NCBI GenBank assembly: GCA_963695855.1
Contig: CAVOHZ010000010.1
Coordinates: forward strand, 1,216,001 to 1,280,000
From: an uncultured Nitrososphaerales archaeon
GTDB lineage: Archaea; Thermoproteota; Nitrososphaeria; Nitrososphaerales; Nitrososphaeraceae
Length of the DNA stretch: 64,000 nt
Reading direction: 5' to 3'
Below, in pieces: positions 19,980-50,673 of the stretch. The translations under genes were made by a program, and so were the position numbers. The notes beneath the pieces were generated by a model, which made no database searches, was not told the origin of the DNA, and saw only the letters and a program-made list of their open reading frames with translations. The stretch's first letter is position 1; each line of letters opens with the position of its first letter.

Positions 19980-20037
19980 AACCCTACTAATATACGTGGC
20001 ACAGAGGATAGTCAACTAATTTTGACCCAATTTGAGT
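19980..20037 (+). repeat. att-like dispersed repeat, family 1, site A
   Basis: atacgtggcacagaggataGTCAActaattTTGACccaatttgagt. Confidence 0.8.
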
Positions 20038-20271
20038 TTTAAAACAAGAAATAAGTGCAGTTGATAATCATACTCAAAATAAAACTATTGATCTAAATGT
20101 CGCTATGATTAAATGGTTAGCTAAATGTGTTAGGAATGCAAGTTACACAACATGGCAATATAATCAATAGATCCAGAATTTGAAATTCCGAATTCTTTTC
20201 TGTACTAATTTTCTAGAAACTTTGATTAGAAAGTATATTAAAAACAAACTTTAATAAATAATTTAGGGAAG

Positions 20272-20685
20272 ATGTTCCTAGATAACAAAAATACTTTTTA
20301 TGTGGTAGTCCTATTGTCTGCTTCATTTTTAATCGGTGGGATGATAACAGCACCGGTAGTTTCAAAAATATATGCTGATCCTGATACCAAATTCTTTAAA
20401 AAAGAAAATATAAAGATACAATATGATAAGAAATACAAGCACAAGCACCACAATTACGACGACAGATGTTATGACAACCATCATAATAAATACAAGGACA
20501 AACATCACGAGTACAACGACAGATGTTATGACAACCATCATCATAAATATTACAAAGATCATAAACATCATGATAACCATCATCATAAATATTACAAAGA
20601 TCATAAACATCATGATAACCATCATCATAAATATTACAAAGATCATGAAAATTACAAACACGATAGAGAGTATCATAAATACTAA
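20272..20685 (+). CDS. secreted His/Lys/Tyr-rich repeat protein
   Basis: Signal peptide then DNHHHKYYKDHKHH-type repeats. Confidence 0.75.
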   Translation: MFLDNKNTFYVVVLLSASFLIGGMITAPVVSKIYADPDTKFFKKENIKIQYDKKYKHKHHNYDDRCYDNHHNKYKDKHHEYNDRCYDNHHHKYYKDHKHHDNHHHKYYKDHKHHDNHHHKYYKDHENYKHDREYHKY

Positions 20686-20827
20686 TTTTATTAGAATAAT
20701 AGGATCTGTAAATTAAATAACAAATAAAGAAGTAACATATAATTACTATTACAGAGTTTCGATTGAAAAAAATAATGGACATAACTTACTAATGGATAAA
20801 TTTAAAGGGTTAAAATTAGCAGAAGAT

Positions 20828-20915
20828 GAATAGCCCCAAATTATCCTCCTATAAACAATTATGCTATTGGCTAATTGTACTATACCAAGATAGTTTTCGT
20901 ACCTTACAAACAACA
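20828..20915 (-). mobile_element. IS5 right-end remnant
   Basis: Reverse complement aligns with ~10250-10320; encodes ENYLGIVQLANSIIVYRRII. Confidence 0.75.
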
Positions 20916-21391
20916 TTATTTACTAACACCTTTTCTTCTTGTCTATGTCGGATGGAATTCATGAATTATGTCATTTGAAAATTCAAGGACATTCTTGTCA
21001 TTTGAGTTTTTTTAAACAATTTGTGGTTGGATAACAGAAAAAAATGACTGGCTTCATAAAAATACGAGACGTACGTTGATATCATGAACGACCATGATTT
21101 TCACAATTTTATTTTTTTATACTCCGTATGATTTGATAACCTTTTAAAATTTTTTTAATAATCCTTGTTTCAAATACCTATAAATTTTTCAAAAAGGTTA
21201 TGAACTATTTATAGGGATTCGGTTTTTTATCTTAATATTTGCAGGTTATTTAGTAATTACCTTAAGAATGAACTCATCTTTGCGATCGTTTGACAAATCA
21301 AGTATGATATTGGAAAATTTGAGGTCTTTTTGTTAATGGCGGCACAAATATTGACAAATAAAATCGATATGCTATAATACTACTTTTTTTA

Positions 21392-21961
21392 TTGCAAAAT
21401 GTGGGCTATGATAATGAAGAATATGAAAAGAAAATGCTTATAGATTTCCTAAAATTAACTAAAGAGAGATTTCATATTTTAATAGATAATGAAAATGGAG
21501 ACCTCAGAACTATAATTTCTGATGATATGAGACCACTTCTTCCTTTGTATGAAAGATCGTATAAAGATGTTGAGAAGAATATTGACAGGTGTATGGAGAT
21601 AATACCAAATATACCATATGGCCTTTTAGTTCGACATGGATTTACCAATAATCATCTTATTCTTAAATTAATTCAGGTAGATATATGTTGGATAAATATA
21701 GTAACTATAAGAAAAGATCCTTTAAGAAATTTTGATAAAATATACAAGGATCAAAAAGAACCATCTAAAGAAGAAAAACGTAAATGGGAGAATTTTAAAG
21801 ATAAACTTAGAAGAAATTGGTATAAATTTCTAAGAGCAACTGATAGTTGTATTTTTGAAAGCTTAAATGATATTATTAATGCAATGCCTGGCCAATCTGG
21901 AATTTTTGCTATGGTTAAAGAATGGAAAAATTCAGTAGAAATAGCAATTGAAGAAAAATAA
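21392..21961 (+). CDS. hypothetical protein
   Basis: 189-aa ORF; start uncertain. Confidence 0.65.
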   Translation: MQNVGYDNEEYEKKMLIDFLKLTKERFHILIDNENGDLRTIISDDMRPLLPLYERSYKDVEKNIDRCMEIIPNIPYGLLVRHGFTNNHLILKLIQVDICWINIVTIRKDPLRNFDKIYKDQKEPSKEEKRKWENFKDKLRRNWYKFLRATDSCIFESLNDIINAMPGQSGIFAMVKEWKNSVEIAIEEK

Positions 21962-22257
21962 ATCTTTGGTACTTTACTTAATATATCAAATTTCATTAGA
22001 GTTGAGAAAATTTGTACCTTAATATTGAAAAATTTGTCCCGACTTGAAAATGGAATATCATAACTAAACTGCTAAAATTGATAAATTTAATCTCAAGCTA
22101 AAAGTACTTGAATTCATTTGAAAATAATGAAAAGAAAAAAACTAAATCAAGTTATTTCTTCTTCAATCAAGCTACCATCTATTGATTGTTTTCTCATGTT
22201 TGAATAATTTGAATTATTGTGTTTTCTATAAAATCTTTCCAAGTCATATGATGCAGC

Positions 22258-22318
22258 AGAGCCTTGATTCTATACGGGCTAGGCGGATAGTCAACTGATT
22301 TTGACACAATTTTGTGGT
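22258..22318 (+). repeat. att-like dispersed repeat, family 1, site B
   Basis: agagccttgattctatacgggctaggcggataGTCAActgattTTGACacaattttgtggt. Confidence 0.9.
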
Positions 22319-22814
22319 ACAAAAATTCAACGAGCAAACCGGAAAAATTCTGATCTAATAGAGACTAATTGTTAGCAATATTTTAAAACAGATATAGATT
22401 ATAGATTAATGTAATTGTTTATATTGTGGTTTTACTAACATTAGCCGATTTTTATTTTAGTATTTTTATAACGATATATTTGTGACTTGCATTTTCAATT
22501 TGTTAAAATATTCTTTTTAAAATGTCTTTTCTTCCTATTATATAAACGATCTCAATGCAATGATTTTACATTTCAACAATTGTTATCTTTAATACTTGAA
22601 GTTGATTGATGGATTGACTTTTGCTATTTGAAATATGATTCTATTTCTAGTTTTTATCAACGTAGTCGCCTTCAGTCACATCTCTTTTCTTACTTTCTTG
22701 AATATTTGTATGAAATAAGTTTTTAATTTAGCAATCGTATTGATTTTTCTTTCTGTTTTGTTTGATTAAGTTATATCCTATCTATCTTTATGTAGTATCA
22801 TGGATGTGAGTATG

Positions 22815-24257
22815 CTAGGCTCTTTTTGAATCGTCCACGTCAAATCTTTTCTTGCGCCAGTGATCATCTATAGTGTCTCTTTCTTCTATTGCTAACTTTA
22901 CATAATCTCTCAGATTGTTTTCTGTAACTTCATACGAAAAATCACCAACCAGTTTTTGCATTTCCTTCTGTTGTTTTTGTATAATCTTTGTTACCTTCTT
23001 CTCTATCTCTTGTTCCATCTGTGCAGTTCCAATGTTACCAACTAGATCATTCATAGATCCTTTGATTGATTTTCTTAAAGAGATATCATGTGATATTGAT
23101 ATTGCAGAAAGGTACAATCCAAAACTAAACAAGTACGAAGATAGCATTACAAGTGAATGAGCAGCAACTCCGTATGTCGGTTGTATTGCCGAAGTAGAAA
23201 GTGAAATACCAACCATAGTATCACCTATTGCTGCGATGATTAGATAATCTTTTAATTTTGATGAGACCAAACTCTTTACAATCATAAAAAAGGCTAGACC
23301 AAATAGAACATTTCCTGCTATAGTACCTATTCTAAATAAAAGTCTAAAAAAATAACGATACTGTTCGTCTACTCCTGATAAACCTTCACCTGAAAAGAAG
23401 CCTGGTGCCTTTCCAATCAAGTAAAATATCAATGGAAGTGACAAAATTATCCAAAGTAATAGCGGGAGTTTACCTACTCTCTGATAAAGGGTACGTAATA
23501 GTGAGGTAGATGCAATCCATCTAAATCCAAATGCTATTGGAAGAACCGTGGAATTGAGAAGATTATAAAATATTAAACTTGAATTTGGTATTATATAAAG
23601 AAAAGTAGTATCTGAATTCACTATTTTGTATATTATTTCGCCATCATATTTCTCAGAGGGTTCATATAAGAAAGATGATTCAGTCGTTACTCCTGGTGGC
23701 GACTTTTCTTGTACCACCTGTACTAATAATAATTTAGTACCGGCATCTTCTAATATCGATGAACCAAGTGTTAATGCTGCAATTCCATAAAATAAAATAA
23801 CGAGATTTTTATAACTAGTTAATTTATACCATGAAATTAATTTGAAGGTAATGATACCTATTATTATGCTTGATGCTATTGAACTAACTGCGAAGATTGA
23901 AGGAGATAGAAATCTATTACCGGTATTACTAATAAGCATAAAGAGGAGTACTAGAAATAAGGAAAATTGAATTATAACCATACTCCAATGCATTAGATTA
24001 ATAAACCGGGATTTGGTTCTGATATCCTTACTTATTTGTGTAGTGTATCCTAGAAGGATCCAAGATCCTATACCATATCCAATAACTACAGTCAAAATAA
24101 ACATTAGGATTTCCATATCCTTGGTATAGGGCAAAATCTGCCGGGTCATCAATAAGTCAATAATCACAATAAAAAATATAGCAACTCCTGTTATGACAGG
24201 TATTTTCCTATTACGCATAATAGGTATTTGGAGAAACAAGTATCTCCCAAGATTCAT
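22815..24257 (-). CDS. polytopic membrane protein with C-terminal soluble tail
   Basis: About 11 hydrophobic segments; S.S.D..LR.SI...IG.A.ME.E tail typical of a Nitrososphaeraceae family. Confidence 0.85.
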   Translation of the reverse strand: MNLGRYLFLQIPIMRNRKIPVITGVAIFFIVIIDLLMTRQILPYTKDMEILMFILTVVIGYGIGSWILLGYTTQISKDIRTKSRFINLMHWSMVIIQFSLFLVLLFMLISNTGNRFLSPSIFAVSSIASSIIIGIITFKLISWYKLTSYKNLVILFYGIAALTLGSSILEDAGTKLLLVQVVQEKSPPGVTTESSFLYEPSEKYDGEIIYKIVNSDTTFLYIIPNSSLIFYNLLNSTVLPIAFGFRWIASTSLLRTLYQRVGKLPLLLWIILSLPLIFYLIGKAPGFFSGEGLSGVDEQYRYFFRLLFRIGTIAGNVLFGLAFFMIVKSLVSSKLKDYLIIAAIGDTMVGISLSTSAIQPTYGVAAHSLVMLSSYLFSFGLYLSAISISHDISLRKSIKGSMNDLVGNIGTAQMEQEIEKKVTKIIQKQQKEMQKLVGDFSYEVTENNLRDYVKLAIEERDTIDDHWRKKRFDVDDSKRA

Positions 24258-24812
24258 GATTTAGATATCCTTTAGAATTATTTAAATTAATTAAATTTTG
24301 ATAATGAGAAATGATATTATCAATCAATAATAATAATAATAAAATTAAATTTTTGTAGAAGGAAGATGCTTTATATATACTATAGAATAAGTTTATAAAG
24401 TATATACATTTTCGCAATTTTTGTATTGATTAAAGTAGTTTGAGGAAGCATATTGATCCTTTATAACATAAAAATTTGTTTGTATTATAATATTAAAAAA
24501 ATTAGTTAAAAATAAGATATTAATTAATAAGTTTCCAATTAGTAATTTCTATTCTGTTAATATCAGAATTATAACTATAAAAGCTTTTCTTGCTATTATC
24601 TAATTGTTTTATTAATTATGACAAAAAGACAGATTATCACTCGATCTACCGATATAAATTCATATTGGCTTGATATTCCAGTTCAACTTTCATCCATCGT
24701 TTCACTTCTTTTCTTACAGTCGTGTTTGAATATTCTTTCATAAATTATAATTATCTTTTCATTTAGTTTGGTATTTTATATTTTTTTAATAATTTTATTG
24801 ATTGCATATATA

Positions 24813-25769
24813 CTAATATCCTTTAATATGTAACCCTAGTGAGTCGTATACAATATTCTTCATCTGAAAAATTTGATAACCATTTTCAAATAAATATTTC
24901 ATTTCCTTTTCAAATAAATCAGGGTTGATACTATAATCATCTTCACTATAATCAATCATATGATATACGAGGATTGGAATTGCTCTTATTACGTATGCGC
25001 TATTGTATCTTGTTTGACTATCTACTATTTCTTTAAATTTTTCATACATTTCCTCATCAGAATATCCACCAGATTTTTTATAGGCTTCATGACTCAATCC
25101 AGTTATTGTATACCTCTTGAAATCTGATTGTATTGTATTTTCATTATTTTTAGGTGAAGAATGTTGGCATTGATTTTCGTATTTATCATCATACACAAAA
25201 CCTTCATCGTCATCTTTACATGAAAAAAACATAAGTGGCTCAGTTGCGGTCCGAGCAAGATAATAATTGTCAGCAATAATTTTTATTATATTTTTGTTTG
25301 TATCGCCATCATTATATGGGAAGGAGAAACTGGTTACATTAAATCCTTTTTCTTGTAGACATCTTTTGGATTCAATAATTTCATATTTTATATCGTTATC
25401 TGATAATTTCCCTAGTCGTTTATGGTTCATTGAATGAGAACCAATTTCATGTCCTTCTTGTTCAAGTGACTGGATATCATCCCAATTCATTCTATCGTCT
25501 TTACCTACAAAATTACAAATGATATAGAAGGTAGCCTTAAAATTGTATATATCTAAAATTGGTTTTGCGTAAGTAAACTGACTTAGCATTCCATCATCAA
25601 ATGTTAAAATTGCTGCTTTTATTGGTTCAGCCAAGGAATAAGAGATCAGAACAGGAGAAGAAGATAATAGTATTATCATTAAAAATAGGAATACTGTTAA
25701 ACAATACATAGTAAGAATTTCAAAAATGTGCAAGATATTTAGGTATTGCCTTAAATCGATTATGTACAA
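24813..25769 (-). CDS. polysaccharide deacetylase (CE4/NodB)
   Basis: LTFDDG, HEIGSHS..H, FSFPY; N-terminal hydrophobic segment. Confidence 0.9.
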   Translation of the reverse strand: MYIIDLRQYLNILHIFEILTMYCLTVFLFLMIILLSSSPVLISYSLAEPIKAAILTFDDGMLSQFTYAKPILDIYNFKATFYIICNFVGKDDRMNWDDIQSLEQEGHEIGSHSMNHKRLGKLSDNDIKYEIIESKRCLQEKGFNVTSFSFPYNDGDTNKNIIKIIADNYYLARTATEPLMFFSCKDDDEGFVYDDKYENQCQHSSPKNNENTIQSDFKRYTITGLSHEAYKKSGGYSDEEMYEKFKEIVDSQTRYNSAYVIRAIPILVYHMIDYSEDDYSINPDLFEKEMKYLFENGYQIFQMKNIVYDSLGLHIKGY

Positions 25770-25859
25770 TTACATGATTAAGTGTTATGCTATTACTTCA
25801 TGTAGATAAATTCATTTTCATATTTTTTTTATCTTTGTAATTACTGATATATTTATTCG

Positions 25860-25907
25860 TAGGCATTCAAACGCAGTATATCAACTGATTTTGACACAAT
25901 TTTCAGT
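25860..25907 (+). repeat. att-like dispersed repeat, family 1, site C (left half degraded)
   Basis: tataTCAActgattTTGACacaattttcagt. Confidence 0.75.
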
Positions 25908-25974
25908 CCTTTTTCTACAGTTTTTAAAAATTAATTCTATCTTCATTTTCTTGATGATGAAAAAATGTTAAAAA

Positions 25975-26520
25975 TTAAGGTTCAAGAAATGTATTTACCA
26001 TATTACTTAATCTTTCAGGATATTGAAACATAAACGCATGACCTCCCTTTTATGAACTGTGCTAACTAGGCTCCAGGAATTTTTTGCGTTAATGATAAAG
26101 AATTGTTAGATAGTATTATCTGATCATCATTTCCTGCTACAGCTAACTTATCTTGAGATATGTTTTTTAAACGACCATAAGAGCCTATTGGAATCCAATC
26201 AAGCATTGCGTCTATTTGCTTTTGTAGAGTTATATTGGAATGTAAGTGAAGCGATGCAAATTTTTCATCGTTGTGATCACCCTTTTGTTCTATCCATTTT
26301 TTTTGGGAATTGATAAGGAATAAATCGATTTTAAATTTAATTCTCAGTTCCAGTTAAATCGCTAAATTCGTCTCTCAGTTCTTCAGACTGGTAAGAAGAT
26401 TGTATAGTACCACAATGAGAAGCATAAATTATCAAATCGTTAACTTTGTCAGAATATTTTATGTTAATTCCTGTGCTATGAACCCTTGCATTGAATAGAA
26501 TAACCCAAAATATCTGTTTT
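25975..26520 (-). pseudogene. alpha/beta hydrolase pseudogene, paralog of 40596..41555
   Basis: KIPGA*LAQFIKGGHAFMFQYPERLSNMVNTFLE, DDLIIYAS.CG; multiple lesions, 5' half missing. Confidence 0.85.
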
Positions 26521-26524
26521 TAAT

Positions 26525-26542
26525 TTTTTCGGCGCCGAAAAA
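26525..26542. repeat. palindrome TTTTTCGGCGCCGAAAAA, copy 2
   Basis: Identical to 8011-8028. Confidence 0.8.
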
Positions 26543-26574
26543 TAATATTGAAAAAAATATTTTCATACAATAGT

Positions 26575-26617
26575 CAACAGGATGGCTGGAATGGCTCAGA
26601 TATATGCCATCCTGTTG
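26575..26617. other. 12-bp perfect inverted repeat (hairpin)
   Basis: CAACAGGATGGC-N19-GCCATCCTGTTG. Confidence 0.7.
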
Positions 26618-27043
26618 TCAGTTACCCATCTTTTATGTAATGTTATAATAACTTGGTATTTGTATTATTTATGATATATGGTGGTAAAAAATATTTTTTT
26701 ACTATATTAATTATAGAAAATAATTTTTAGATCACGTACAATTTGAGATTTGAAGACTCTTGTTTAAGTCTTGTTTCTTTCAATATGCATACTAAGAGTT
26801 TGTTTATACATATTACTAGTCTAACACCATCTACATGTCAGTCCAATAAAAGAAATTGTTGCAATTAGAGTTATCCCTACAACCATTCCTATGATGCAGA
26901 TGTTGAATTTTGTTAACTTACATACTTCTTTATTCTCCTTAGAACAGAAAAAGATATTCCACATCTAAAATAGAGTTACCTGATAATAAGAAACATAACA
27001 GTAAATTTACAAAAATATAGACCAATAAAATTATAAGATACTA

Positions 27044-27064
27044 TTTTTTCCGGCGCCGAAAAAA
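27044..27064. repeat. CGGCGCCG palindrome, copy 3
   Basis: TTTTTTCCGGCGCCGAAAAAA. Confidence 0.75.
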
Positions 27065-27190
27065 TTAAATTGACTTATTTATTGATTTTAATTTTGTTCA
27101 CTTACGCATTATGTATTCAAATTTAAAAAGAAGTTTGGAAATATGTGGGTGTCCATGTTGGAATGTATTTGAAAAATTGTGGATGATTTT

Positions 27191-29136: not shown

Positions 29137-29196
29137 AAAGCCCGATGTAATACGGGCTCGATGGATAGTCAACTGTTTTTGACAAAATTTTGTGGT
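29137..29196 (+). repeat. att-like dispersed repeat, family 1, site D
   Basis: aaagcccgatgtaatacgggctcgatggataGTCAActgtttTTGACaaaattttgtggt. Confidence 0.9.
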
Positions 29197-41947: not shown

Positions 41948-42154
41948 CCTTAGTCGTTAATTTATTTAATTGCCTCATCTTTATAAAATATATAGTTTGC
42001 AATCTTTTGTTTTCTAACACATTAGCAGAATCAGATTCAATATTTAATTCTTCATTAAAGATAACAGGAAAAAATCTAAAAAGTAAATTGTCAAGGAGAG
42101 TAGATGATCAAGAATCATTAATTAATCACAAAAATAATTTAGGACTAATCTATT

Positions 42155-42565: not shown

Positions 42566-42729
42566 AGATTTTTCTGTGTATCGTCTATTTTAAATATTAC
42601 TATATGGTTTTAAAGAAAACAACCCATCATTTAAGAAAATGAAAAAGATATACATGGTAAAAATAGTCCTGTTCCTTTGGAACTTATCTCTTTAAAAAAA
42701 GAAAATTAAATTTTTTCGTTATCTAAAAC

Positions 42730-43395
42730 GGGTGTGTTCAGATAAGCAGCAAAAGCTATAGCTGAGAATGTTCTAAATATACTATGAAAATCAAATTTGA
42801 AAGAAATACAACATGTAACTGTATTGTAATATATTCTTTGTATCTATATTTTCTTGGTCTCAGTTTAAGAAATACTTCTAAAGTATTAATGCTCTTTAAA
42901 CAAACGTAAGAAAAGGAGTTACGTGTCTGTATGGAATTGGGGTTCAAAGATTTGGATCCTGCCAGATCTATAAAAGAAAAAGAATAACTGCCTTTATTAT
43001 AGATGAAACTATTATTCAGATTGGTAATCAGCACTTCTGGTTATGGTTTTGTATTGAACCAATCCACAGTTCTTTGCTTGGAATCTATATCTCAGAGGAG
43101 AGAAACATGATAGTTGCTGAAAAGTTCATAAGGTCTGTTGTATCAAACTATGGAACACATGCCGTGTATACAGATAATGGAGGTACATGGTATGATAAAG
43201 CATGTAACGTAATTGGATTAAAACAGTATCTACACTCACCATTTCAGAAAAATTTTGATGGAAAGAGTCAACCAGTATTTGAAAGACAGAATAGAAAGTT
43301 TTGATGATTACTCTCCTTGTATGCAAGAGGATTGTAATCTATTTCATGTACATAACTGGATACAATTCTTTGTTTCGATGTATAATGATACTATA
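42730..43395 (+). mobile_element. IS6-family element, second degraded copy, right end lost
   Basis: Collinear DNA similarity to 31795-32455. Confidence 0.85.
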
Positions 43396-43406
43396 TATAA
43401 AAGCAT

Positions 43407-43660
43407 TCAACAATCTCCTAATCTTTTGGTTTCTGAGCTACCTTCTTTAGTACATACATTTTTGAGATTATACCCACAATTATCAATATATGCCTTGTAG
43501 TTATCATAATAGACATCATGATACCCTATTTTTTTGAATTCATCCATTAGCCAATCGGCTGCCTTATTGATGTGTGTAGATTTACTATGTCTATTATGAA
43601 ACAAGATTAGATAATTTAATTTTGTTTTTATATTATCCAATGAAACTTCACCTAATAATG
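43407..43660 (-). pseudogene. M28 peptidase-like N-terminal fragment
   Basis: FHNRHS.S..I..AADWL..EF...GY...NV..K.G; ends at the IS6 remnant. Confidence 0.55.
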
Positions 43661-43982
43661 ATATAACGGCATATCTAATTTTTTTTCAGACTTTTGTATG
43701 TCAATTATAATTGTTTTTGTATTTCTAATTCTTTTATCTATTTGAAAATTTTTACACATATTTAATTCAACAGTATATTTTACTCATGAACTTTTTATTA
43801 TCCTCCACTATCTTATCATTATCTATTTGTTTATTAAAAAAGGATCTTAAAACCTTGTCTTTTTTGTAAATTGCAATAGCATTTTTAGAATCAGTATTAA
43901 TTTCTGACATGCGAATGTTTTTCTCGATATATTTAGGTTTATTTATGAGCAAATAGAAAATACTTCTATGTTAAAATTTACA

Positions 43983-44004
43983 ATCTTTTAGACGCCGAAA
44001 AGAT
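43983..44004. repeat. CGGCGCCG palindrome, copy 4 (degenerate)
   Basis: ATCTTTTAGACGCCGAAAAGAT. Confidence 0.55.
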
Positions 44005-44045
44005 TTTTTTACCAATAAAAATGGCTATAGAATTGTAATAATTAC

Positions 44046-44243
44046 TTAGAACTCTTCATCATTTTCTTCTTCTTTTGGTTTACTCCAATAAAAGACATTT
44101 GCAGCACCACATCTTCTACATTTGTTCGTTGACTTTACATAATCCTTCCAGTTTAACACTTTCCTATCAACTATAGTATGGACTTTGTCTGGTTGGGAGA
44201 CAACAATCTCTGCTTCGCACTTCCTGCAGGTAACTACACTCAT
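44046..44243 (-). CDS. small zinc-ribbon protein
   Basis: CRKC...PD..HT...CRRC...N.FYW. Confidence 0.7.
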   Translation of the reverse strand: MSVVTCRKCEAEIVVSQPDKVHTIVDRKVLNWKDYVKSTNKCRRCGAANVFYWSKPKEEENDEEF

Positions 44244-44590
44244 GATGATAATACAATATGTTTTTGGTTACCCATCTATCTATCTTTGTTTTTAAAAATT
44301 CAAGTTGTAGCTAGCATCAAAGGATTTGGATCACTATAACTTTAAATAAATTCCGTTATAAAAAAATAAACTACATTGTGATAATTACATTTACCCTAAC
44401 CTCTATATGAGCAACTCGACTTCTACTTCCGCAACTAAGATGCTCGAGTAATTTATTTTATCCCTTGTTCTCCGGAATTACCAAAAAAATGATGATATAC
44501 TAAATATATTTATGGACTATTCATTAGATATTTTTATTTTTAAAGTTCTAAAGAAAATTTAAAAAAAGATACTTTGTTATATGATTTACA

Positions 44591-45223
44591 TTGAATAAAA
44601 AAATTCCATTAATTGTTGGAATCCTCATTTTTAATGATGTAGAGATCTTAGATGTTGCTGGACCTTTTGAGGTATTTGCTGTCACTCGTTTAAATGAAAA
44701 ACGACGAGTAAAGCAATCGTCACCATTTAAAGTATATTTAATAGCTGAAAAGAATAAACAAATTACAGCAATTGGTGGTCTACGTTTAACTCCTGATGTA
44801 ACCATTAGTGAATGTCCGGAATTGGATTTATTGGTAGTACCTGGTGGATGGGGCACACGTAAAGAATCAAAAAATAAAATTCTATTAAATTGGATTAGTA
44901 ATCAATTTAATACTATTACTGATGATAGATTGATTGCCTCAGTTTGTACGGGATCTAGTATTCTTGGAAAAGCAGGCTTGTTAGATGGACGAGATGCAAC
45001 TACTCATTGGCGAGCTTTTGATTTCCTGCAGGAATCTGCACCGAAAGCACGAATTCTCAAAAATGTTAGATTTACATTGACTGAACCCATATTTACATCT
45101 GCTGGTGTTTCTGCTGGAATCGATTTAGCCCTTCGTATAGTAAGTCATTTTTTTGGAACTGAAATAGGACAAACTACTGCTCGCCAAATGGAATATCCTT
45201 ATCCTAGTAGTGACCAAAGATGA
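44591..45223 (+). CDS. DJ-1/PfpI family protein
   Basis: E.LD.AGP.EVF, VPGG.G, SVCTG, ATTHW, TSAGVSAGID. Confidence 0.92.
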   Translation: MNKKIPLIVGILIFNDVEILDVAGPFEVFAVTRLNEKRRVKQSSPFKVYLIAEKNKQITAIGGLRLTPDVTISECPELDLLVVPGGWGTRKESKNKILLNWISNQFNTITDDRLIASVCTGSSILGKAGLLDGRDATTHWRAFDFLQESAPKARILKNVRFTLTEPIFTSAGVSAGIDLALRIVSHFFGTEIGQTTARQMEYPYPSSDQR

Positions 45224-45329
45224 TAATCTAATAAATTTCTAATAAATTTTGTTAATCTATAATGAGATTGGAAATAAAGTAAATCTATCACTAAACAAAA
45301 TGAGCTATCTGATTTTGTTACTGTTATTG

Positions 45330-45390
45330 AGTTTGAGAATATGATAAAGGAGATGATATTAAAAGCATCGTTGTATAAGTGGTTTCAAAA
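45330..45390 (+). mobile_element. IS5-family (ISH1/IS903-like) transposase C-terminal remnant
   Basis: FENMIKEMILKASLYKWF; similar to 48190-48240. Confidence 0.5.
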
Positions 45391-46127
45391 AATAACTATC
45401 AAAAGATTAAAACTTTTGGGAAAAGACGATTATTATATAATCTTCTAAATAGCGTTCTGTAAACTATTTGTCGGATTTACAACATAAATTTTGTATTTGC
45501 AATAGAATAATTTTTTCCACATAATTGATAGTATACCAAATCAACCAAAAATATTTCTCGTTGTAAAGTATCTATTGTATCGAAAATTTAGTCTTTATTG
45601 TGAGTATCAAAATAGATTTTAGTCATCTGAACTCTTTCTAGAATTAACTCTGGTATTAATTGGTATCCTGTGTTGATTTCAATTAACAAGAATTGTAAAT
45701 CCAAAAGAATTTTTAACTTTTGTCTTTATTTTTAAATGCTGCAGATGCTTTTCTGTCTTCTTTAAAATCGACATAAGTTGCAAAATTGAATGGAGTCGAA
45801 TTTATTACTAAATAAAATAATATTTATGTTAGGATTTTGTAAATCGACTTAATCTGCATAAGCAAATTCAACTACTTTAAACTGAAAATATTCTTATGTT
45901 AACCATCTTTAAATTTTGTCTTTAATAATTAAAGCATATACATATATTCTACTAATTCACGATAAAATTATTGATAATTAATTACACTAATATTAAAAAA
46001 TATGATAGGGTTATCAAATTAAAGTTCCGCTCATTGAATCGGTCTATTCTTTCAAATTTTAGCATCCGAACATGAAGATAGGTTTATGGAAATTAATAAA
46101 CGATTTGTAAAGAGATAGTATTTTATA

Positions 46128-48086
46128 ATGAACAATTACAAAAAAGTAAAAATAGATTTTTCTCTAAAAAGAGAAATATTTTTTGTAATAGTTGGAGCTA
46201 TCATAGGTGCAATTGTTTTTGTTATTCCTAAAACGATTTTTGAAGTAGTAATGGGAATGCCTTATTACTTATCATGGATAGTATTTGGACATGTCATTGG
46301 AGTATATTCATCAAATGTAATCGTAGCGGGTATAGGGATACATATGTTAACTGCTATTTCAATAGGAGTCGTGGTAGGCATCTTTTTGTATAAAACTGGA
46401 ATATTAAATATTAGTAAACCATCCAATGGAATAATATATGGAATCTTTGCTGGTACTGCAGTATTCATAATTTTCTTTATACCTGTGTATCAATTTGTTA
46501 TTACTCCCCAAACAATAGACACAATCCATAGAATGACTCAAAATGAACAAGAAGCAATCGAATATGAACTTTCATCACAATTACCAACTGTTTTGATAGG
46601 TTCTCTAGTTACCCACCTCGTTTTTGGTATTACTGTGGGTCTTGTTTCTTCTAGCCTTTCTATAAAATTTGGTACTCGATATAGGTGTGCAAAGTGCGAT
46701 ATATCTTTCGGTAGAATTGATTCATATCAAAAACATGCTGAACTAATACATGGAACCAAACCAATAGAACTAAAAAGGATAGTGATTTTGGGTGGCGGAT
46801 TTGCAGGAATAAAAATATTACAACAGTTACAAAAAGAATTTCAAGATAATATTGATGTAGATATAACTATTGTAAGTAGAGATAATTTTTTTCTCTTCAC
46901 TCCTATGCTCCCAGAAGTAGCTGCAAGTGCAATAGAGACAAGACATATAATTACACCGATCAGATCATTCTGCAAGAGAGCTAGGTTTTTTGAAGCATAC
47001 GTAGATTCAATAGATCTACAAAAAAAACATGTAAGCATCAGATATAATATAGGAAAACAGTCCATTCCATTAAATGACAGAGTAAAAGTTCTAAAATATG
47101 ATTATCTAGTTTTAGCACTTGGAGGAGACACCAATTTTTTTGACATAGAAAGTGCATCTAAAAATGCATTCACAATAAAGACTATTGGTGATGCGTTGTT
47201 ATTGCGAGATCATGTTATAAATATGCTGGAGCAAGCTGATATGGAATATGAAAATATAGAATTACAAAAAAGATTAATGACATTTGTAGTGGTAGGAGGC
47301 GGCTTTTCTGGTATAGAAACTGTTGGAGAATTAAATGATTTTGTTCGTGATTCTGTTAAACAGTATTATCACAACATTGATATCAAATATATTAAAATAA
47401 TATTGATAAATTCTGGATCAAGAATTTTACCAGAAGTCTCAGATGATTTATCAGATTTTACTCTAAACAAACTCGAAAAAAATGGAGTTCAAATTATCTT
47501 AAATAAAAGAGTTAAAGAAATAGATGAGAATTACGCGTTATTAAACGATGAAGAGAGAATATGGAGTAATACAGTAATTTGGGCGGGAGGAGTTAAACCG
47601 AATAACATTATAAGCAGTTTAAATTGCGAACATGATAGATCAGGAAAAATAATTACTAACGAATACCTAAAAGTAAATGGATATACAAGTATTTTTGCAC
47701 TAGGAGATTGTGCTTTTATAATCGACCCTAATACTGGAAAACCATATCCACCTACAGCTCAGCATGCATTAAGGGCAGCTAAAATAGCATCTAACAACAT
47801 AATTAATGAAATACACTCAAAGAAAAACAAGAAGAAAGAAGAATTAGTTTTTAACTACAAAACTAAAGGTATGATGGCTCTTATAGGAAAAAGAAATGGT
47901 GTAGGTTTAATATTTGGACACAAAATTCAAGGTTTTATTGGATGGATATTCTGGAGGCTATATTACTGGGGAAATCTTCCAACTACTGAAAGAAAATTGA
48001 GAGTAATGTTGGACTGGTTTATAGATCTATTCTTCAAAAGAGACATAACGAGAATAAAAACTCGGACAGAACATGCAGAAAATTAA
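46128..48086 (+). CDS. type II NADH dehydrogenase-like flavoprotein fused to an N-terminal membrane domain and C2H2 finger
   Basis: GGGFAG, FTP.LPE, GGGFSG.E..GE, FALGDCA, PPTAQ.A; preceded by 4 TM segments and CAKC-x12-H-x4-H. Confidence 0.9.
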   Translation: MNNYKKVKIDFSLKREIFFVIVGAIIGAIVFVIPKTIFEVVMGMPYYLSWIVFGHVIGVYSSNVIVAGIGIHMLTAISIGVVVGIFLYKTGILNISKPSNGIIYGIFAGTAVFIIFFIPVYQFVITPQTIDTIHRMTQNEQEAIEYELSSQLPTVLIGSLVTHLVFGITVGLVSSSLSIKFGTRYRCAKCDISFGRIDSYQKHAELIHGTKPIELKRIVILGGGFAGIKILQQLQKEFQDNIDVDITIVSRDNFFLFTPMLPEVAASAIETRHIITPIRSFCKRARFFEAYVDSIDLQKKHVSIRYNIGKQSIPLNDRVKVLKYDYLVLALGGDTNFFDIESASKNAFTIKTIGDALLLRDHVINMLEQADMEYENIELQKRLMTFVVVGGGFSGIETVGELNDFVRDSVKQYYHNIDIKYIKIILINSGSRILPEVSDDLSDFTLNKLEKNGVQIILNKRVKEIDENYALLNDEERIWSNTVIWAGGVKPNNIISSLNCEHDRSGKIITNEYLKVNGYTSIFALGDCAFIIDPNTGKPYPPTAQHALRAAKIASNNIINEIHSKKNKKKEELVFNYKTKGMMALIGKRNGVGLIFGHKIQGFIGWIFWRLYYWGNLPTTERKLRVMLDWFIDLFFKRDITRIKTRTEHAEN

Positions 48087-48089
48087 TTT

Positions 48090-48320
48090 GCAAGAATGGA
48101 AAGACAGCTTAAGCTACGGTGAGATGAATAATAGAATACTTATTTCATGTATCAAAAGAATGTTTGGAGAATATGTTACTCTATCAAATTTGAGAACACG
48201 ATAAAGGACATTATACTAAAAGTATCATTGTACAACTTGCCTCAAAGTATAACTGTTACCTGATTACTAGTTGGATTCGAATAAATAACGATTATCCGAG
48301 TTACTCAACAAAGCATAAAT
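48090..48320 (+). mobile_element. IS5-family (ISH1/IS903-like) 3' remnant
   Basis: WKDSLSYG...SCIKRMFGEYV...FENTIKDIILKVSLYN across frames. Confidence 0.6.
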
Positions 48321-48600
48321 AATCTAAACCTTATGCGACTTTTTTTTAAGAATGATTCAAAACAAAAAACTCTGCCTTGTAATAATAATTTGTTTTTAAG
48401 TATGCTTAGATCCTTTAGGAAAACTTTTCCAAGTGTCATTATTGTTTTTTTAGTGATGATATAAAAATAACCTGAGAGATTTTACCATTCAAAAAACAAA
48501 GCCAATAATAAAAATTTTTATTATAATGGATTTTTAAACTAAAATTCACACAGAATTAACAAACAACTACATTATTTACTATTTGTTTTATAGGATAGTT

Positions 48601-49143
48601 ATGTCAAAAGAAGAAATAGCAAAATCAATAATTTCTCAAGAGATATGTCAAATATATTCTGATGCGTCTAAAATCAAAGAAAATGGATGTGCAGCATGTC
48701 ATGTGCTATTTACCTTAGTTGATAAAATGCAGATAAGTGAACAAGATGCTTCAGAATTACTATCAGAGATTCTAACCAATGAACCAAATCTAAATGATCA
48801 ATTTATTGAAATGATCGAAACTATTCATATGAAACAAAGAATGATTGGTGTAACATTTTCAACTAAAACCAGACAAGCTAAAGATCGGTATATAGATTTA
48901 AATCTAAAAAACTTTTTGGAAGAACTATCAACCGATTTGGTAAATTATGGTAGTGATATAATATTACGTAAACTACTTTTATCGTCAATTTCATTACAAA
49001 TAGCACAAAATATAGGAATAGACCATCATTCAGCAACTGAAGAACTTTATTATTATATTCGTAAAAATGAACAGAATACAGATCAAAATATAACACAGTT
49101 CATTGACAAATTTTATGAAAGAATCATAAAAAGTAACAAATGA
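48601..49143 (+). CDS. conserved-type hypothetical protein with CAACH motif
   Basis: ATG at 48601; soluble helical composition. Confidence 0.8.
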   Translation: MSKEEIAKSIISQEICQIYSDASKIKENGCAACHVLFTLVDKMQISEQDASELLSEILTNEPNLNDQFIEMIETIHMKQRMIGVTFSTKTRQAKDRYIDLNLKNFLEELSTDLVNYGSDIILRKLLLSSISLQIAQNIGIDHHSATEELYYYIRKNEQNTDQNITQFIDKFYERIIKSNK

Positions 49144-49205
49144 GGTATTAGCAATATTTATAATGTTAAAATTTATGATATTAAAATTAATTTAGTTTAA
49201 TCAAG

Positions 49206-49241
49206 ATCAGAGGACTTCGAGTATGACATGTAATTGGGATC
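49206..49241 (+). repeat. att-like dispersed repeat, family 2, site J
   Basis: atcagaggacttcgagtatgacatgtaattgggatc. Confidence 0.7.
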
Positions 49242-49248
49242 GGCACTC

Positions 49249-49630
49249 TCATATTTGGTCATTTAGTACCTCATTTGAAATCTTTACCATATATTTCTGA
49301 GAGAATTTTGAAATAAAGACAAAGGGAATCAATGGAATTTGAAATTGAACGCTTCTATAAAATGGGACCAGTTACTTTTTGAATAAATTACTGTTATTTA
49401 TCCTCTACTTTCGAATTTTTATTTCAAAATTTTTTAGTTTTCCAGGTCATATATAGAAATTGGAGGATACTTTTGATCTAGATCTTTAACTATTTTAGTC
49501 TTTTCTAGATTGGAGCATCATCAACAATACGTTTGATTGCTACAGTTGTTTTAGGCATTTCTTTAGTTCCTTGAGCTATTTCATCGGTCATACCTGCAGT
49601 ATTTCTATACTGTGTTTAAAATGAAGATAT
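49249..49630 (-). pseudogene. possible WrbA/flavodoxin-like remnant
   Basis: QYRNTAGMTDEIAQGTK...VAIKRI.D...SIYDLE; heavily decayed. Confidence 0.35.
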
Positions 49631-49657
49631 TGGTTGTTATTGTCTTTGTATTTTTAC

Positions 49658-49776
49658 GGGCCTGTTAAGTTAAGTATAAAATATAAGATATGTTTTGTTT
49701 GTCTATAATGTTCTACACTCAATTTTAGTAGATTTTTTCAATTTAATTTGTAGTTTTTGCTTAACTTAACAGAGCC
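49658..49776 (-). mobile_element. 119-bp MITE, inverted copy of 11642..11760
   Basis: Reverse-complement similarity over the full length; 8-bp duplication ATTTTTAC. Confidence 0.9.
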
Positions 49777-49911
49777 ATTTTTACTCAATAATTGATATAG
49801 ATAACATATAATATAAATCCTATAATTTAAGACAATAAATACATAATTTTTACATTTACATTTATATTATAAATACAAACATCTAAAAATATTATATATC
49901 TATATGCATTA

Positions 49912-50529
49912 TTATCTTATTTTATTACCTAATTCTTCAATAAAAGCAATTTCTGATAATGGTTTTCTTTCTCTAGGGGAATTAGCTTTTTCTCTATATC
50001 TTTCAGGTAATATTTCGTGAGAATCTTGGTATCCAATTGCTATCATTATACCTATTTCATATTCATCGGGAATATTGAAAACTTTCACCGCTTTGTCTCT
50101 ATCAAATCCACCCATTTCATGCATAATTAATCCTTGATTGAATGATTCAAGAAACATATTTTCATTGGCTGCACCTAAATCGTGAAAGTGAAGTCTATTA
50201 TAAATTCCATTATTAGAATAAGTTTTCTTTGTTATTGCACAAATTAAAATTGGAGCTCGTTTAGCATAATTGTTTATTTCCAATAATACTGATCTTGCTT
50301 TATCAAGCTTCTCTGGATTATCATCTGTAAAAACTATGTAACGCCATGGTTGTTCATTACGCGATGATGGTGCCCATCTAGCGGCTTCGAGAATAGAAAG
50401 TAATTTTGATTTTTCTACTTTTTTAGTTGAAAATGCTCTTGCACTCCATCGTCTTGCAATTAACTTATGTATTGGAAAATCTGTATTTGCTATTTTTGTT
50501 ATCAAATCATTATTATTTTTATCACTCAC
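49912..50529 (-). CDS. nitroreductase family protein
   Basis: RWS.RAF, LEAARWAPS..NEQPW, DLGAA, H.MGGFD, RKPL. Confidence 0.92.
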   Translation of the reverse strand: MSDKNNNDLITKIANTDFPIHKLIARRWSARAFSTKKVEKSKLLSILEAARWAPSSRNEQPWRYIVFTDDNPEKLDKARSVLLEINNYAKRAPILICAITKKTYSNNGIYNRLHFHDLGAANENMFLESFNQGLIMHEMGGFDRDKAVKVFNIPDEYEIGIMIAIGYQDSHEILPERYREKANSPRERKPLSEIAFIEELGNKIR

Positions 50530-50615
50530 AAAAAATCACCAATTTCTCTTACTTTTTTTTGTTGTCCTTTGCTTTTATATTCTATCCATTTTACTCTTTC
50601 AAAATAGATGTATAT

Positions 50616-50673
50616 GAACCCCGATATAATACTGGCTCGGAGAATAGTTAACTGTTTTGACAAATTTTGTAGT
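50616..50673 (+). repeat. att-like dispersed repeat, family 1, site H
   Basis: gaaccccgatataatactggctcggagaataGTTAActgttTTGACaaattttgtagt. Confidence 0.85.

What the first reader, a model, noticed from the sequence alone, without database searches (positions are those of the whole stretch)
19980..50673. Array of co-oriented tRNA-derived att-like sites dividing the island into gene modules (candidate non-attC cassette system)
Seen: eight intergenic direct repeats at about 19980, 22258, 25860, 29137, 33647, 34791 (weak), 40471 and 50616. The consensus is AAAGCCYYGATNNNATACGGGCTCGGAGGATAGTCAACTGWTTTTGACACAATTTTGTRGT, all on one strand, 1-10 kb apart. The consensus core ACGGGCTCGGAGG equals 1383-1395 (the tRNA acceptor strand) and is followed by GTCAA-N6-TTGAC. 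Neighbouring genes face either way and several sites lie at gene 3' ends, which argues against simple operators. Established: tyrosine recombinase sites are inverted arms around a 6-8 bp spacer, and tandem integration at one tRNA regenerates attP-like junctions; Prochlorococcus tycheposon islands and pdif modules are loose analogs. The sites lack attC RYYYAAC/GTTRRRY boxes. Inference: integrase-less cargo modules (deacetylase, cupin and PPK2, K+ channel, hydrolase and others) were serially added at a tRNA(Arg) locus, forming an integron-like accretion system I do not recognise as described for ammonia-oxidising archaea.
Basis: partly seen in the sequence, partly recalled or inferred. Interest (0 to 1): 0.85.

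Follow-up and report, generated by a model that had tools for sequence, protein, structure and literature searches.

The report
tRNA-anchored recombination-site array in archaeal island
A soil ammonia-oxidising archaeon carries a large flexible gene island cut into small gene modules by a same-direction repeated 65-base recombination site derived partly from the end of a tRNA-Arg gene, which looks like the way this group of nitrifiers swaps accessory genes.

Summary
The repeats are real: 7 of the 8 named sites are found by a profile search, the eighth is a degenerate copy, and all are intergenic and on the + strand. Position 1383-1395 is not a tRNA gene but a 19-nt 3' fragment. The intact tRNA-Arg(TCG), with a tyrosine integrase beside it, lies 69 kb upstream of the window.

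The motif has two parts. The left arm varies and usually contains 12 nt of the tRNA end. The right part, CGGAGG plus a 35-nt arm, is 90-99% conserved.

The motif is found in 22 of 24 genomes of the genus and in 0 of 16 other families searched. Adjacent sites were co-oriented in 50 of 50 pairs in relatives' contigs and 50 of 50 in metagenome contigs.

Flanks reassort at the sites: 25 one-sided against 3 two-sided homology pairs, versus 17 against 30 at control intergenic points. Gene orientation around the sites is random, and single-strand folding is weak.

Integrases are almost absent from the arrays, though N-terminal integrase remnants abut one class of arm.

Best reading: att-type junctions of a tRNA-Arg-anchored accretion island. 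It is not an integron. Whether integrase-less modules are mobilised in trans is open.

The parts
1363..1402 (+). Type A junction. It combines a 19-nt 3' fragment of tRNA-Arg(TCG) (1384-1402, tRNA sense on the minus strand) with an integrase-type (ii)-like downstream arm (1363-1383). A conserved element arm lies to its right, up to about 1440.
   Evidence: blastn gave 19/19 to the tRNA. Alignment with six other type A junctions and the tRNA is. nhmmer gave a partial hit with E 0.89. No tRNA gene is called here.
9130..9394 (+). Integrase pseudogene fragment, matching int1 residues 92-188 in three small pieces.
   Evidence: tblastn of int1 against the genome, at C10 1225130-1225394.
19975..20034 (+). 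Site B1: full junction with left arm family (iv), the tRNA-like core and the right arm.
   Evidence: nhmmer E 2.1e-11. The orthologous site in G019 is homologous on both flanks.
20035..22254 (.). Module M1, holding two ORFs with no family match (137 aa, repeat-rich; 189 aa).
   Evidence: ORFs. No hits in Pfam, PHROGs or NCBIfam. A whole-module homologue exists in G019.
22255..22319 (+). Site B2: full junction with left arm family (iii).
   Evidence: nhmmer E 8.2e-17. It lies between convergent genes.
22320..25878 (.). Module M2, holding a 480-aa ORF of unknown function and a polysaccharide deacetylase.
   Evidence: Pfam PF01522 E 2e-21. A whole-module homologue exists in G019. No M2 homologue at >=85% lies between the M1 and M4 homologues in G014 contig C32.
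25879..25903 (+). Site B3: right arm only, preceded by a family (v)-like left arm without the tRNA core.
   Evidence: nhmmer E 2.6e-4.
25904..29132 (.). Module M3 (a 444-aa ORF with no family match). It is present here and absent in G019, and both ends of the indel lie in sites.
   Evidence: Own 19860-25904 matches G019 concat 35265-41283, and own 29164-33963 matches 41255-46045.
29133..29197 (+). Site B4: full junction.
   Evidence: nhmmer E 5.2e-15.
29198..33642 (.). Module M4, holding a cupin, PPK2, an IS240-type DDE fragment and a YtxH-like ORF.
   Evidence: Pfam. Whole-module homologues exist in G019 and in G014 contig C32, each with a different left neighbour.
33643..33710 (+). Site B5: full junction.
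   Evidence: nhmmer E 9.7e-16. One metagenome contig (run X4) breaks away exactly after 33709.
34810..34839 (+).
   Evidence: 80% to the 30-nt reference. The sequence keeps ACAATTTTGTAGTTC. It was not found by nhmmer.
33711..40465 (.). Module M5, holding an ion channel, a cyclase, a GT2 glycosyltransferase, a dCache protein and a Zn-dependent alcohol dehydrogenase.
   Evidence: Pfam. Its internal indels against G019 and G014 are not at sites.
40466..40531 (+). Site B6: full junction. It is absent at the matching place in G019.
   Evidence: nhmmer E 6e-12.
40532..50610 (.). Module M6, holding an alpha/beta hydrolase, DJ-1/PfpI, an NDH2-like oxidoreductase, a nitroreductase and ORFs of unknown function.
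   Evidence: Pfam.
50611..50673 (+). Site B7: full junction with left arm family (i).
   Evidence: nhmmer E 1.3e-13. The left flank and arm are shared with G019. The right flank is shared with G014 contig C32, which has another left arm.

Best explanation
The repeats are att-type recombination junctions of a flexible genomic island anchored at the 3' end of the single tRNA-Arg(TCG) gene of an ammonia-oxidising archaeon. The island covers roughly C10 1.147-1.36 Mb.

Each junction has two parts. The left arm is variable and travels with the module on its left. In about 70% of copies it contains the last 6-12 nt of the tRNA, so it could restore the tRNA on integration. The right part is constant: CGGAGG, about 4 nt, then GT[C/G]AACTG[A/T]TTTTGACACAATTTTGTAGTTC.

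I infer three steps:
1. A tyrosine integrase of the family encoded next to the tRNA inserted circular elements at the tRNA end, or at an existing junction. This made a same-direction array.
2. Recombination between the direct sites adds, deletes and reshuffles modules.
3. Most modules are now non-autonomous, because their integrases are lost or were never present.

Shown: the sites, their tRNA origin, co-orientation, genus-wide spread, reassortment of flanks at the sites, and the integrase next to the tRNA. Inferred: which enzyme acts, where the strands cross (somewhere in model positions about 31-68), and whether the system is active today.
For: tRNA origin and integrase:
- The intact tRNA-Arg(TCG) is at C10:1147352-1147426, followed by arm (ii) and a 436-aa integrase.
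- The integrase matches PF00589 at 28.1 bits and 26.3 bits. Sources name its homologues integrase/XerD. R180, Y295xxR298H299, W320 and Y330 are invariant in 6 of 6 aligned sequences.
- The 74%-identical homologue in G010 also abuts tRNA-Arg(TCG). Homologues at 57-61% identity abut other tRNAs.
- 19-nt tRNA fragments occur at 7 further places in the island, co-oriented with the neighbouring sites.

Clustering and orientation:
- 17 of 21 profile hits (E<1e-3, duplicate contig C7 left out) lie in C10 1.08-1.36 Mb.
- Adjacent sites are co-oriented in 50 of 50 pairs in 9 relatives' contigs and 50 of 50 pairs in 36 metagenome contigs.
- The motif is in 22 of 24 genomes of the genus and 0 of 16 other families. 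The reversed-pattern control gave 0.

Reassortment at the sites:
- At sites there are 25 one-sided against 3 two-sided flank-homology pairs. At 271 control intergenic points there are 17 against 30. Fisher p = 8e-6.
- In the larger set of 187 sites there are 229 one-sided against 27 two-sided pairs.
- 8 of 88 homology ends fall inside sites, against 0.55 expected at random and 1.3 for intergenic positions.
- Module M3 is present or absent exactly site to site.
- Downstream-arm families (ii), (iii) and (iv) are found joined to the tRNA body, to type A arms and to the right arm.
- Metagenome contig L066 shows the tRNA directly abutted by a 737-nt integrase-less module and then a site.

Gene context:
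- Gene orientation around 71 sites is random: 31 +/36 - on the right, 32 +/36 - on the left.
Against: - 80 of 88 homology ends are not at sites, and several indels against G019 have no site at either boundary.
- The variable right-arm positions 40 and 46 are linked to neither flank. That fits distributed homologous exchange as well as a fixed cleavage site.
- G019 has 20 sites but no full-length integrase of this family: its best match covers residues 22-153 and has 3 stops.
- No circular or tandem-duplicate junction was seen. No contig had a terminal repeat, and only one well-supported metagenome joint lies at a site edge.
- The integrase model was poor in the catalytic part, and no solved relative was found by sequence.
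- The array changes direction once, near C10 1.17 Mb. No tRNA lies at the far end, and I did not explain this.
Confidence: 0.6

Rival explanations
1. Dedicated cassette platform. Integrase-less modules are the normal mobile unit. Each carries its own variable arm plus the constant CGGAGG and right arm. A single integrase at the tRNA end captures, excises and reshuffles them in trans, as an integron does with attC cassettes.
For: - 130 sites in 80 metagenome contigs (351.6 kb) came with only 1 integrase fragment. Spacings were 0.4-5.3 kb, often too small for the 1.3-kb integrase gene.
- No mobile-element hallmark gene was found in 30 window ORFs.
- Left arms fall into several conserved families. 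Some lack the tRNA core, while the right part is constant.
- A 737-nt integrase-less module sits directly at the tRNA in L066.
- Whole-module presence or absence occurs site to site.
Against: - Integrase N-terminal remnants lie 38-72 nt from family (ii) arms in 6 cases. The left flank of a family (i) arm also looks like a gene start (read from the sequences). Both point to decay of integrase-bearing elements.
- Contig length biases the spacings towards small values.
- No circle or fresh insertion was seen, and there is no near-identical module at two sites apart from the ambiguous contig C7.
- G019 keeps an array without any intact integrase.
Confidence: 0.3
2. Fossil scars plus homologous recombination. 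The sites are dead attL/attR/attP-like scars of old tandem integrations. Today's module gains, losses and reshuffling come from general homologous recombination between the ~40-nt near-identical repeats, with no site-specific enzyme acting.
For: - Exchange points appear spread over the right arm: positions 35-46 are partly linked to both flanks or to neither.
- Arrays persist in genomes without an intact integrase.
- Many integrase copies in the genus carry stops or are truncated.
- Most indels in the island are unrelated to sites.
Against: - Neutral scars should decay. Yet the 35-nt arm is 90-99% conserved over 71 copies whose flanks are unalignable, and it recurs in 22 species-level genomes.
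- Strict co-orientation is kept in 100 of 100 adjacent pairs.
- The reverse-pattern control gave 0.
Confidence: 0.2
3. Host cis element. The right arm is the binding site of a regulator or an architectural protein, or a terminator or insulator, kept for a host function in island genes. Recombination at it is a by-product.
For: - The arm holds two ATTTTG repeats about one helical turn apart, small dyads and T runs (read from the consensus).
- Conservation is high without any visible enzyme in many genomes.
Against: - There is no fixed distance or orientation to genes on either side at 71 sites. Sites lie between convergent, divergent and tandem genes.
- Sites are confined to one island and a few islets rather than spread over a regulon.
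- They are physically fused to tRNA-end copies and integrase remnants.
- No Rfam family matches.
Confidence: 0.07
4. The repeat is the end of an insertion sequence or a MITE.
For: The genome is rich in IS copies. A separate IS-end-like motif does occur in the window.
Against: - No inverted partner was seen: 0 of 100 adjacent pairs are inverted.
- No transposase is consistently adjacent.
- The spacing is 0.4-17 kb with unrelated cargo between sites.
Confidence: 0.02

Closest known systems
Prochlorococcus genomic islands shaped by tycheposons (Hackl et al., bioRxiv 10.1101/2020.12.28.424599; I read passages only)
   Same: - The islands are anchored at tRNA genes.
- Repeated integration at the same tRNA pushes older elements inwards.
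- Partial tRNA copies and fragmented integrases are scattered through the island.
- The cargo is niche genes.
   Different: - The host here is an archaeon.
- The repeated junction carries a 35-nt non-tRNA arm that is better conserved than the tRNA part.
- There are about 20 junctions per island, with modules of 0.4-17 kb that lack integration or replication hallmark genes.
- Excision is not shown here.
- Membership in the tycheposon gene family was not tested.
Integrons, including archaeal integrons and integrase-less attC clusters (Ghaly et al., bioRxiv 10.1101/2022.02.06.479319; I read passages only)
   Same: - An array of same-direction recombination sites separates small cargo modules.
- One tyrosine recombinase sits at the platform end.
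- Arrays without an integrase are common.
- The sites have a variable part and a conserved part.
   Different: - There is no attC architecture, and single-strand folding is weak (mean z -0.3 to -0.6).
- Genes face either way.
- The integrase is a Nitrososphaeraceae family next to a tRNA, not shown to be IntI.
- The platform is a tRNA end, not attI.
Tandem arrays of integrated elements that re-use one att site in archaea and bacteria (stated in Krupovic et al. 2019, PMC6563490; I read passages only)
   Same: A tyrosine-recombinase element integrates into a tRNA gene, direct att repeats flank it, and serial integration makes arrays.
   Different: - The passages I read describe pairs of whole elements, not arrays of some 20 mostly integrase-less small modules.
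- A term search of that paper found no occurrence of 'Nitrosocosmicus' or 'tRNA-Arg'.
Accretion of integrative elements with cis-mobilisable, integrase-less elements (CIME) in streptococci (recalled, not read here)
   Same: Integrase-less units bounded by att sites sit in tandem with an integrase-bearing element and can be moved by its integrase.
   Different: This is a bacterial system with few units per locus. It is recalled from memory, and no call tested the likeness.
Elements that exploit Xer/dif sites (IMEX, pdif modules) (recalled, not read here)
   Same: These are integrase-less modules bounded by short conserved recombination sites and acted on by an enzyme encoded elsewhere.
   Different: By inspection of the consensus, the right arm is not an 11-6-11 dyad like dif. 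The sites are direct rather than alternating, and the link here is to a tRNA and an integrase, not to the terminus. The GC skew was uninformative.

Membership tests
Integron | attC sites: imperfect inverted R''/L'' and L'/R' boxes that fold as single-stranded hairpins | tested here: not met
   41 full-length copies were folded with DNA parameters. Mean dG was -4.2 kcal/mol and mean z was -0.33 (top strand) and -0.64 (bottom strand) against shuffles. Only one 7-mer resembles an R box, with a mismatch (read).
Integron | Cassettes mostly promoterless and co-oriented with the array | tested here: not met
   The first ORF to the right of 71 sites is 31 + and 36 -. To the left it is 32 + and 36 -.
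Integron | IntI-type integrase with its specific extra domain, next to attI | not tested
   The integrase gives only a borderline PF00589 match. No IntI-specific model was run. It lies next to a tRNA, not an attI.
tRNA-anchored tandem integration (accretion) island | Intact tRNA gene at one end with a tyrosine integrase beside it | tested here: met
   tRNA-Arg(TCG) is at C10:1147352-1147426 and the integrase at 1147485-1148795. The same arrangement is seen in G010.
tRNA-anchored tandem integration (accretion) island | Direct repeats of the tRNA 3' end inside the island, all in one direction | tested here: met
   There are seven 19-nt fragments. 88 of 199 sites match the 12-nt core with <=2 mismatches. 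Adjacent sites are co-oriented in 100 of 100 pairs in relatives and metagenomes. The own genome has one change of direction, near 1.17 Mb.
tRNA-anchored tandem integration (accretion) island | Each unit between repeats is an element with its own integrase | tested here: not met
   No PF00589 match lies in the window. 1 of 80 metagenome contigs has an integrase fragment. Remnants lie next to family (ii) arms only.
tRNA-anchored tandem integration (accretion) island | Gene content changes between relatives at the repeats | tested here: met
   Searches show this. It holds for only part of the changes: 8 of 88 homology ends are at sites.
tRNA-anchored tandem integration (accretion) island | Excision and integration by the integrase | not testable with these tools
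   Only contigs of metagenome runs were on hand.
Tycheposon | The family's shared integration and replication hallmark genes | not tested
   No tycheposon protein set was available. The likeness concerns island structure only.
Insertion sequence / MITE | Terminal inverted repeats in pairs, with a transposase or target duplication | tested here: not met
   0 of 100 adjacent pairs are inverted, and the cargo between sites is unrelated.
Promoter, operator or terminator motif | Fixed position and orientation relative to genes | tested here: not met
Structured RNA gene (tRNA, sRNA) | Match to a known RNA family, or a tRNA fold | tested here: not met
   Expression could not be examined because no RNA run was listed.

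The most novel reading that the evidence does not exclude
Soil ammonia-oxidising archaea of this genus own a non-attC gene-cassette platform. A tRNA-Arg(TCG) end serves as the primary attachment site. One tyrosine integrase with a C-terminal zinc ribbon acts in trans. Dozens of small integrase-less cassettes, each ending in its own arm and sharing a constant ~42-nt CGGAGG plus right-arm site, are captured, excised and reshuffled. This would be a functional analogue of the integron that arose independently in Archaea.
Probability: 0.3. Interest if true: 0.85.

Novelty: new variant of a known kind. Interest (0 to 1): 0.6.

Why it matters
Soil ammonia oxidisers of this lineage have large genomes rich in accessory genes, and how they trade genes is poorly known.

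Here roughly 200 kb, about 6% of the genome, is organised by one conserved junction sequence that recurs in 22 of 24 species-level genomes of the genus and in many soil metagenome contigs. This gives three things:
- a concrete and testable route for gain and loss of accessory genes (sensors, redox enzymes, cell-surface enzymes);
- a sequence tag for finding the flexible gene pool of these archaea in metagenomes;
- a candidate integrase-and-site pair that could serve as an integration tool for organisms that still lack genetics.

If the in-trans cassette reading holds, it would be a second, independent invention of an integron-like platform.

I found no description of it. I read only passages of PMC6563490 and PMC13245735.

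Tried and rejected
Readings tested and rejected:
- Promoter, operator or terminator: gene orientation and distance around 71 sites are random.
- Known RNA or a tRNA at 1383: nothing found.
- attC-like folding: weak.
- IS or MITE: no inverted pairs. A different IS-end-like motif was found instead.
- Replication-terminus or polar motif: the cumulative GC skew of C10 is uninformative.

Searches and checks that led nowhere:
- Free element in viral contigs: 0 matches to the right-arm pattern.
- Circular contigs: none of the 80 metagenome contigs has a terminal repeat.
- Expression: no RNA holder was listed, so nothing can be said.
- Reads: only Logan contigs could be laid. One joint with good support (run X4, 33709 to 35694, side 123) starts at a site edge, but its other end lies behind an IS-end-like motif. 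Two other joints have short sides (22-23 letters) and I give them no weight.
- Integrase structure: the model was poor (mean pLDDT 56, catalytic part below 50), so no fold search was made. PDB sequence searches gave only a weak zinc-ribbon match.
- Empty site in a site-free relative: at the syntenic place G012 has a tRNA-like sequence that ARAGORN does not call, plus degenerate arm traces. Only one downstream gene matched the far side of the island, which is too little for synteny.
- Exact crossover point: per-position linkage limits it only to about model positions 31-68.

Errors of my own:
- The alignment used wrong coordinates for the G019 locus and should be ignored. The comparison stands.
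- The neighbour labels printed are unreliable for C10 because of an ordering bug in my script. I used the coordinates instead.

Limits on the counts:
- The pair counts include related and some duplicate contigs, so the p-value is only indicative.
- The relatives' contigs were chosen because they held several pattern hits. Their orientation was not a selection criterion.

Full report
**The observation.**
The window is G000:C10:1216001-1280000 of a 3.55-Mb, 11-contig genome. The genome encodes archaeal AmoA (E 1e-117), so the organism is an ammonia-oxidising archaeon.

A profile built from the copies finds seven window sites at E<1e-3: 19975, 22255, 25879, 29133, 33643, 40466 and 50611. All are on the + strand.

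The eighth site, 34810-34839, is a degenerate right arm. None lies in an ORF of 80 aa or more. The right-arm pattern has 4 matches in the window against 0 expected, and the 13-mer core has 4 against 0.03.

The exact core at 1383-1395 is real, but the window has no tRNA gene. Positions 1384-1402 are a 19-nt 3' fragment, in minus sense, of tRNA-Arg(TCG). The only intact copy of that tRNA is at C10:1147352-1147426.

**Anatomy of the junction.**
I aligned 71 copies from this genome and from nine contigs of five relatives.
- The most conserved stretch is not the tRNA-like part. It is the right arm, GT[C/G]AACTG[A/T]TTTTGACACAATTTTGTAGTTC, at 90-99% per position.
- CGGAGG just before it is 80-90% conserved.
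- The tRNA-like ACGGGCT is 60-88% conserved.
- The left arm falls into families. Family (ii) is the same sequence that follows the intact tRNA and precedes the integrase gene.

Among 199 sites, 88 match the 12-nt tRNA core with <=2 mismatches, 51 with 3-4 mismatches and 60 not at all. The coreless sites again form families; about 20 of them share a different conserved 25-nt arm.

A second junction class, type A, joins the same downstream arms (ii, iii, iv) to 19 nt of the tRNA end plus its own conserved arms. The window's copy at 1363-1402 is of this class.

**Where the sites are.**
In this genome 17 of 21 hits at E<1e-3 (duplicate contig C7 left out) lie between C10 1.08 and 1.36 Mb. The rest are on C8 (3) and C3 (1).

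Sites and tRNA fragments downstream of the tRNA, from 1.147 to 1.170 Mb, point one way. From 1.177 to 1.358 Mb they point the other way. I did not explain this single switch.

The right-arm pattern with <=3 mismatches occurs in 22 of 24 other genomes of the genus, at 1-32 copies each. It occurs in 0 of 16 genomes of other families of the order, and the reversed-pattern control gave 0 everywhere.

Every adjacent pair of sites has the same direction in nine relatives' contigs (59 sites, 50 of 50 pairs). I chose those contigs for holding several hits, not for direction. In the 80 contigs held (351.6 kb) the profile finds 130 sites, and 50 of 50 adjacent pairs in 36 contigs are co-oriented. Viral contigs gave 0 matches.

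**What the sites do to their surroundings.**
G019 is 92-96% identical to the window and largely colinear with it. Four kinds of evidence bear on the sites as exchange points.

1. Site-bounded changes.
 - Module M3 (window 25904-29132) is absent in G019, with both ends of the indel inside sites.
 - After site 50611-50673 the two genomes diverge at once. The window's right flank there recurs in G014 behind a site with a different left arm.
 - The cupin-PPK2 module M4 has three different left neighbours in the three genomes.

2. Homology ends. Of 88 distinct ends, 8 fall inside sites, against 0.55 expected at random and 1.3 for intergenic positions. But 80 do not, and several indels have no site at a boundary.

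3. Flank homology between sites.
 - Among 70 sites, pairs sharing only one flank outnumber pairs sharing both by 25 to 3.
 - At 271 non-site intergenic midpoints of the same DNA the counts are 17 to 30. Fisher p = 8e-6. The sequences are kin, so this is indicative only.
 - With the metagenome contigs added (187 sites) the counts are 229 to 27.

4. Position-by-position linkage. The left arm travels with the left flank through about position 30, so it includes the tRNA-like CGGGCT. No right-arm position is clearly tied to the right flank, and the two common variable positions (40, 46) are tied to neither flank. The exchange zone is therefore about positions 31-68. A fixed cleavage site and distributed homologous exchange cannot be told apart.

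One metagenome contig (run X4) leaves the window sequence exactly after 33709, the last base of a site, and resumes at 35694. The far end of that joint lies behind an IS-end-like motif.

**Genes and enzymes.**
Thirty window ORFs were scanned. They are accessory genes: polysaccharide deacetylase, cupin, PPK2, ion channel, two cyclases, a GT2 glycosyltransferase, a dCache protein, a Zn-dependent alcohol dehydrogenase, an alpha/beta hydrolase, DJ-1, an NDH2-like enzyme, a nitroreductase and a luciferase-like oxidoreductase. There is also one IS240-type fragment. Ten ORFs have no match in Pfam, PHROGs or NCBIfam.

No integrase lies in the window except a fragment at 9130-9394.

The gene beside the tRNA is a 436-aa protein.
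- It gives a borderline PF00589 match.
- It has 1,687 homologues at E<=1e-5. Sources name several of the listed ones integrase or XerD, some from Nitrososphaeraceae archaea.
- An R...YxxRH...W...Y pattern and a C-terminal CxxC..CxxC tail are invariant in 6 of 6 aligned sequences. Assigning these residues to catalysis is my inference.
- Its structure model was poor, and no solved relative was found by sequence.

The family is in 19 of 25 genomes of the genus, with many copies truncated or carrying stops. G019, with 20 sites on one contig, has no full-length copy.
- The 74% homologue in G010 also abuts tRNA-Arg(TCG).
- Homologues at 57-61% abut tRNA-Pro(GGG) and tRNA-Arg(CCT).
- A frameshifted 72-79% copy in G018 abuts a full site.

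N-terminal remnants of the integrase lie 38-72 nt from family (ii) arms in six places. In the 80 metagenome contigs only one integrase fragment accompanies 130 sites. In contig L066 the tRNA itself is followed by a 737-nt module with two tiny ORFs and then a site.

**Interpretation.**
The sites are fused to the tRNA end. An integrase specific for that tRNA sits beside it. The direction is strictly kept, and flanks reassort at the sites. Together these make att-type recombination junctions of a tRNA-Arg-anchored accretion island the best reading (0.6).

A model that fits the anatomy runs as follows. A circular unit carries a left arm, CGGAGG and the right arm. Exchange near CGGAGG with the tRNA end, or with an existing junction, inserts the unit. 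Left arms that contain CGGGCT rebuild the tRNA. Each event leaves a junction made of the older unit's left arm and the newer unit's right arm. This is inference.

Two questions stay open:
- Whether the many integrase-less modules are decayed elements (supported by the remnants) or cassettes moved in trans (supported by their size, their number and the arm families).
- Whether exchange today is enzymatic or homologous.

**Comparison and novelty.**
Integron membership fails on the features tested: folding and gene orientation.

The closest described pattern is the tRNA-anchored islands of Prochlorococcus. There, repeated integration leaves partial tRNAs and fragmented integrases (10.1101/2020.12.28.424599, passages read). 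Arrays formed by re-use of one att site are noted for archaea in PMC6563490 (passages read).

What is different here:
- the constant non-tRNA arm, better conserved than the tRNA part;
- about 20 junctions per island;
- the near absence of integrases;
- the spread across a whole genus of soil nitrifiers.

My literature searches found no description of this.

I rate it a new variant of a known kind, with interest 0.6.

Noticed in passing
window 851-1034: Three exact tandem copies of a 61-nt unit lie just left of the type A junction at 1363-1402.
   Followed up: no
window 18302-18582 and 20423-20653: An 18-nt tandem repeat (11 copies) lies inside ORF 18236-18853, and 42/57-nt repeats lie inside ORF 20272-20685. 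The first ORF has many diverged paralogous pieces in G019.
   Followed up: no
window 31791-32464 and 42726-43402: A duplicated IS240-type DDE transposase fragment, 75-95% identical in pieces. It has much higher depth in the metagenome contigs than its surroundings.
   Followed up: partly
window 11745, 35678, 49761; 16 copies genome-wide: An IS-end-like motif, CTTAANTTAACAGRGCC, occurs on both strands across the genome. The metagenome joint 33709 to 35694 ends right behind the 35678 copy.
   Followed up: partly
G000 contig C7 (L020) 5650-10052 vs C10 1151998-1156400: The two stretches are 100% identical over 4.4 kb but have different left neighbours. C7 has a BTRD1/beta-lactamase ORF where C10 has the integrase element. 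The split lies about 40 nt left of the tRNA fragment of a type A junction. This is either an alternative arrangement in the population or a second copy.
   Followed up: partly
L019 3877-5244 (C10 1150377-1151744): The 4.6-kb integrase element between the tRNA and its 19-nt repeat carries a 455-aa ORF with a SIR2_2 domain.
   Followed up: no
integrase P0001 residues about 355-390: A CxxC..CxxC zinc-ribbon-like tail is present in the four aligned homologues that reach that far (two rows end before or inside it). It gives a weak match to ribosomal protein eL40.
   Followed up: no
C10 about 1,170,000-1,176,700: The direction of all junctions switches once here. No tRNA was found at the far (1.36 Mb) end of the + oriented array.
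   Followed up: partly
L034 about 1190-1290 (G012:C17): G012 had no right-arm pattern hits, but at the syntenic place it has a tRNA-Arg-like sequence that ARAGORN does not call. It is followed by an arm-like sequence and a partial right arm 1.7 kb away.
   Followed up: partly
C10 1.26-1.34 Mb: Island G+C is 0.28-0.29, against 0.30-0.34 elsewhere on the contig.
   Followed up: no
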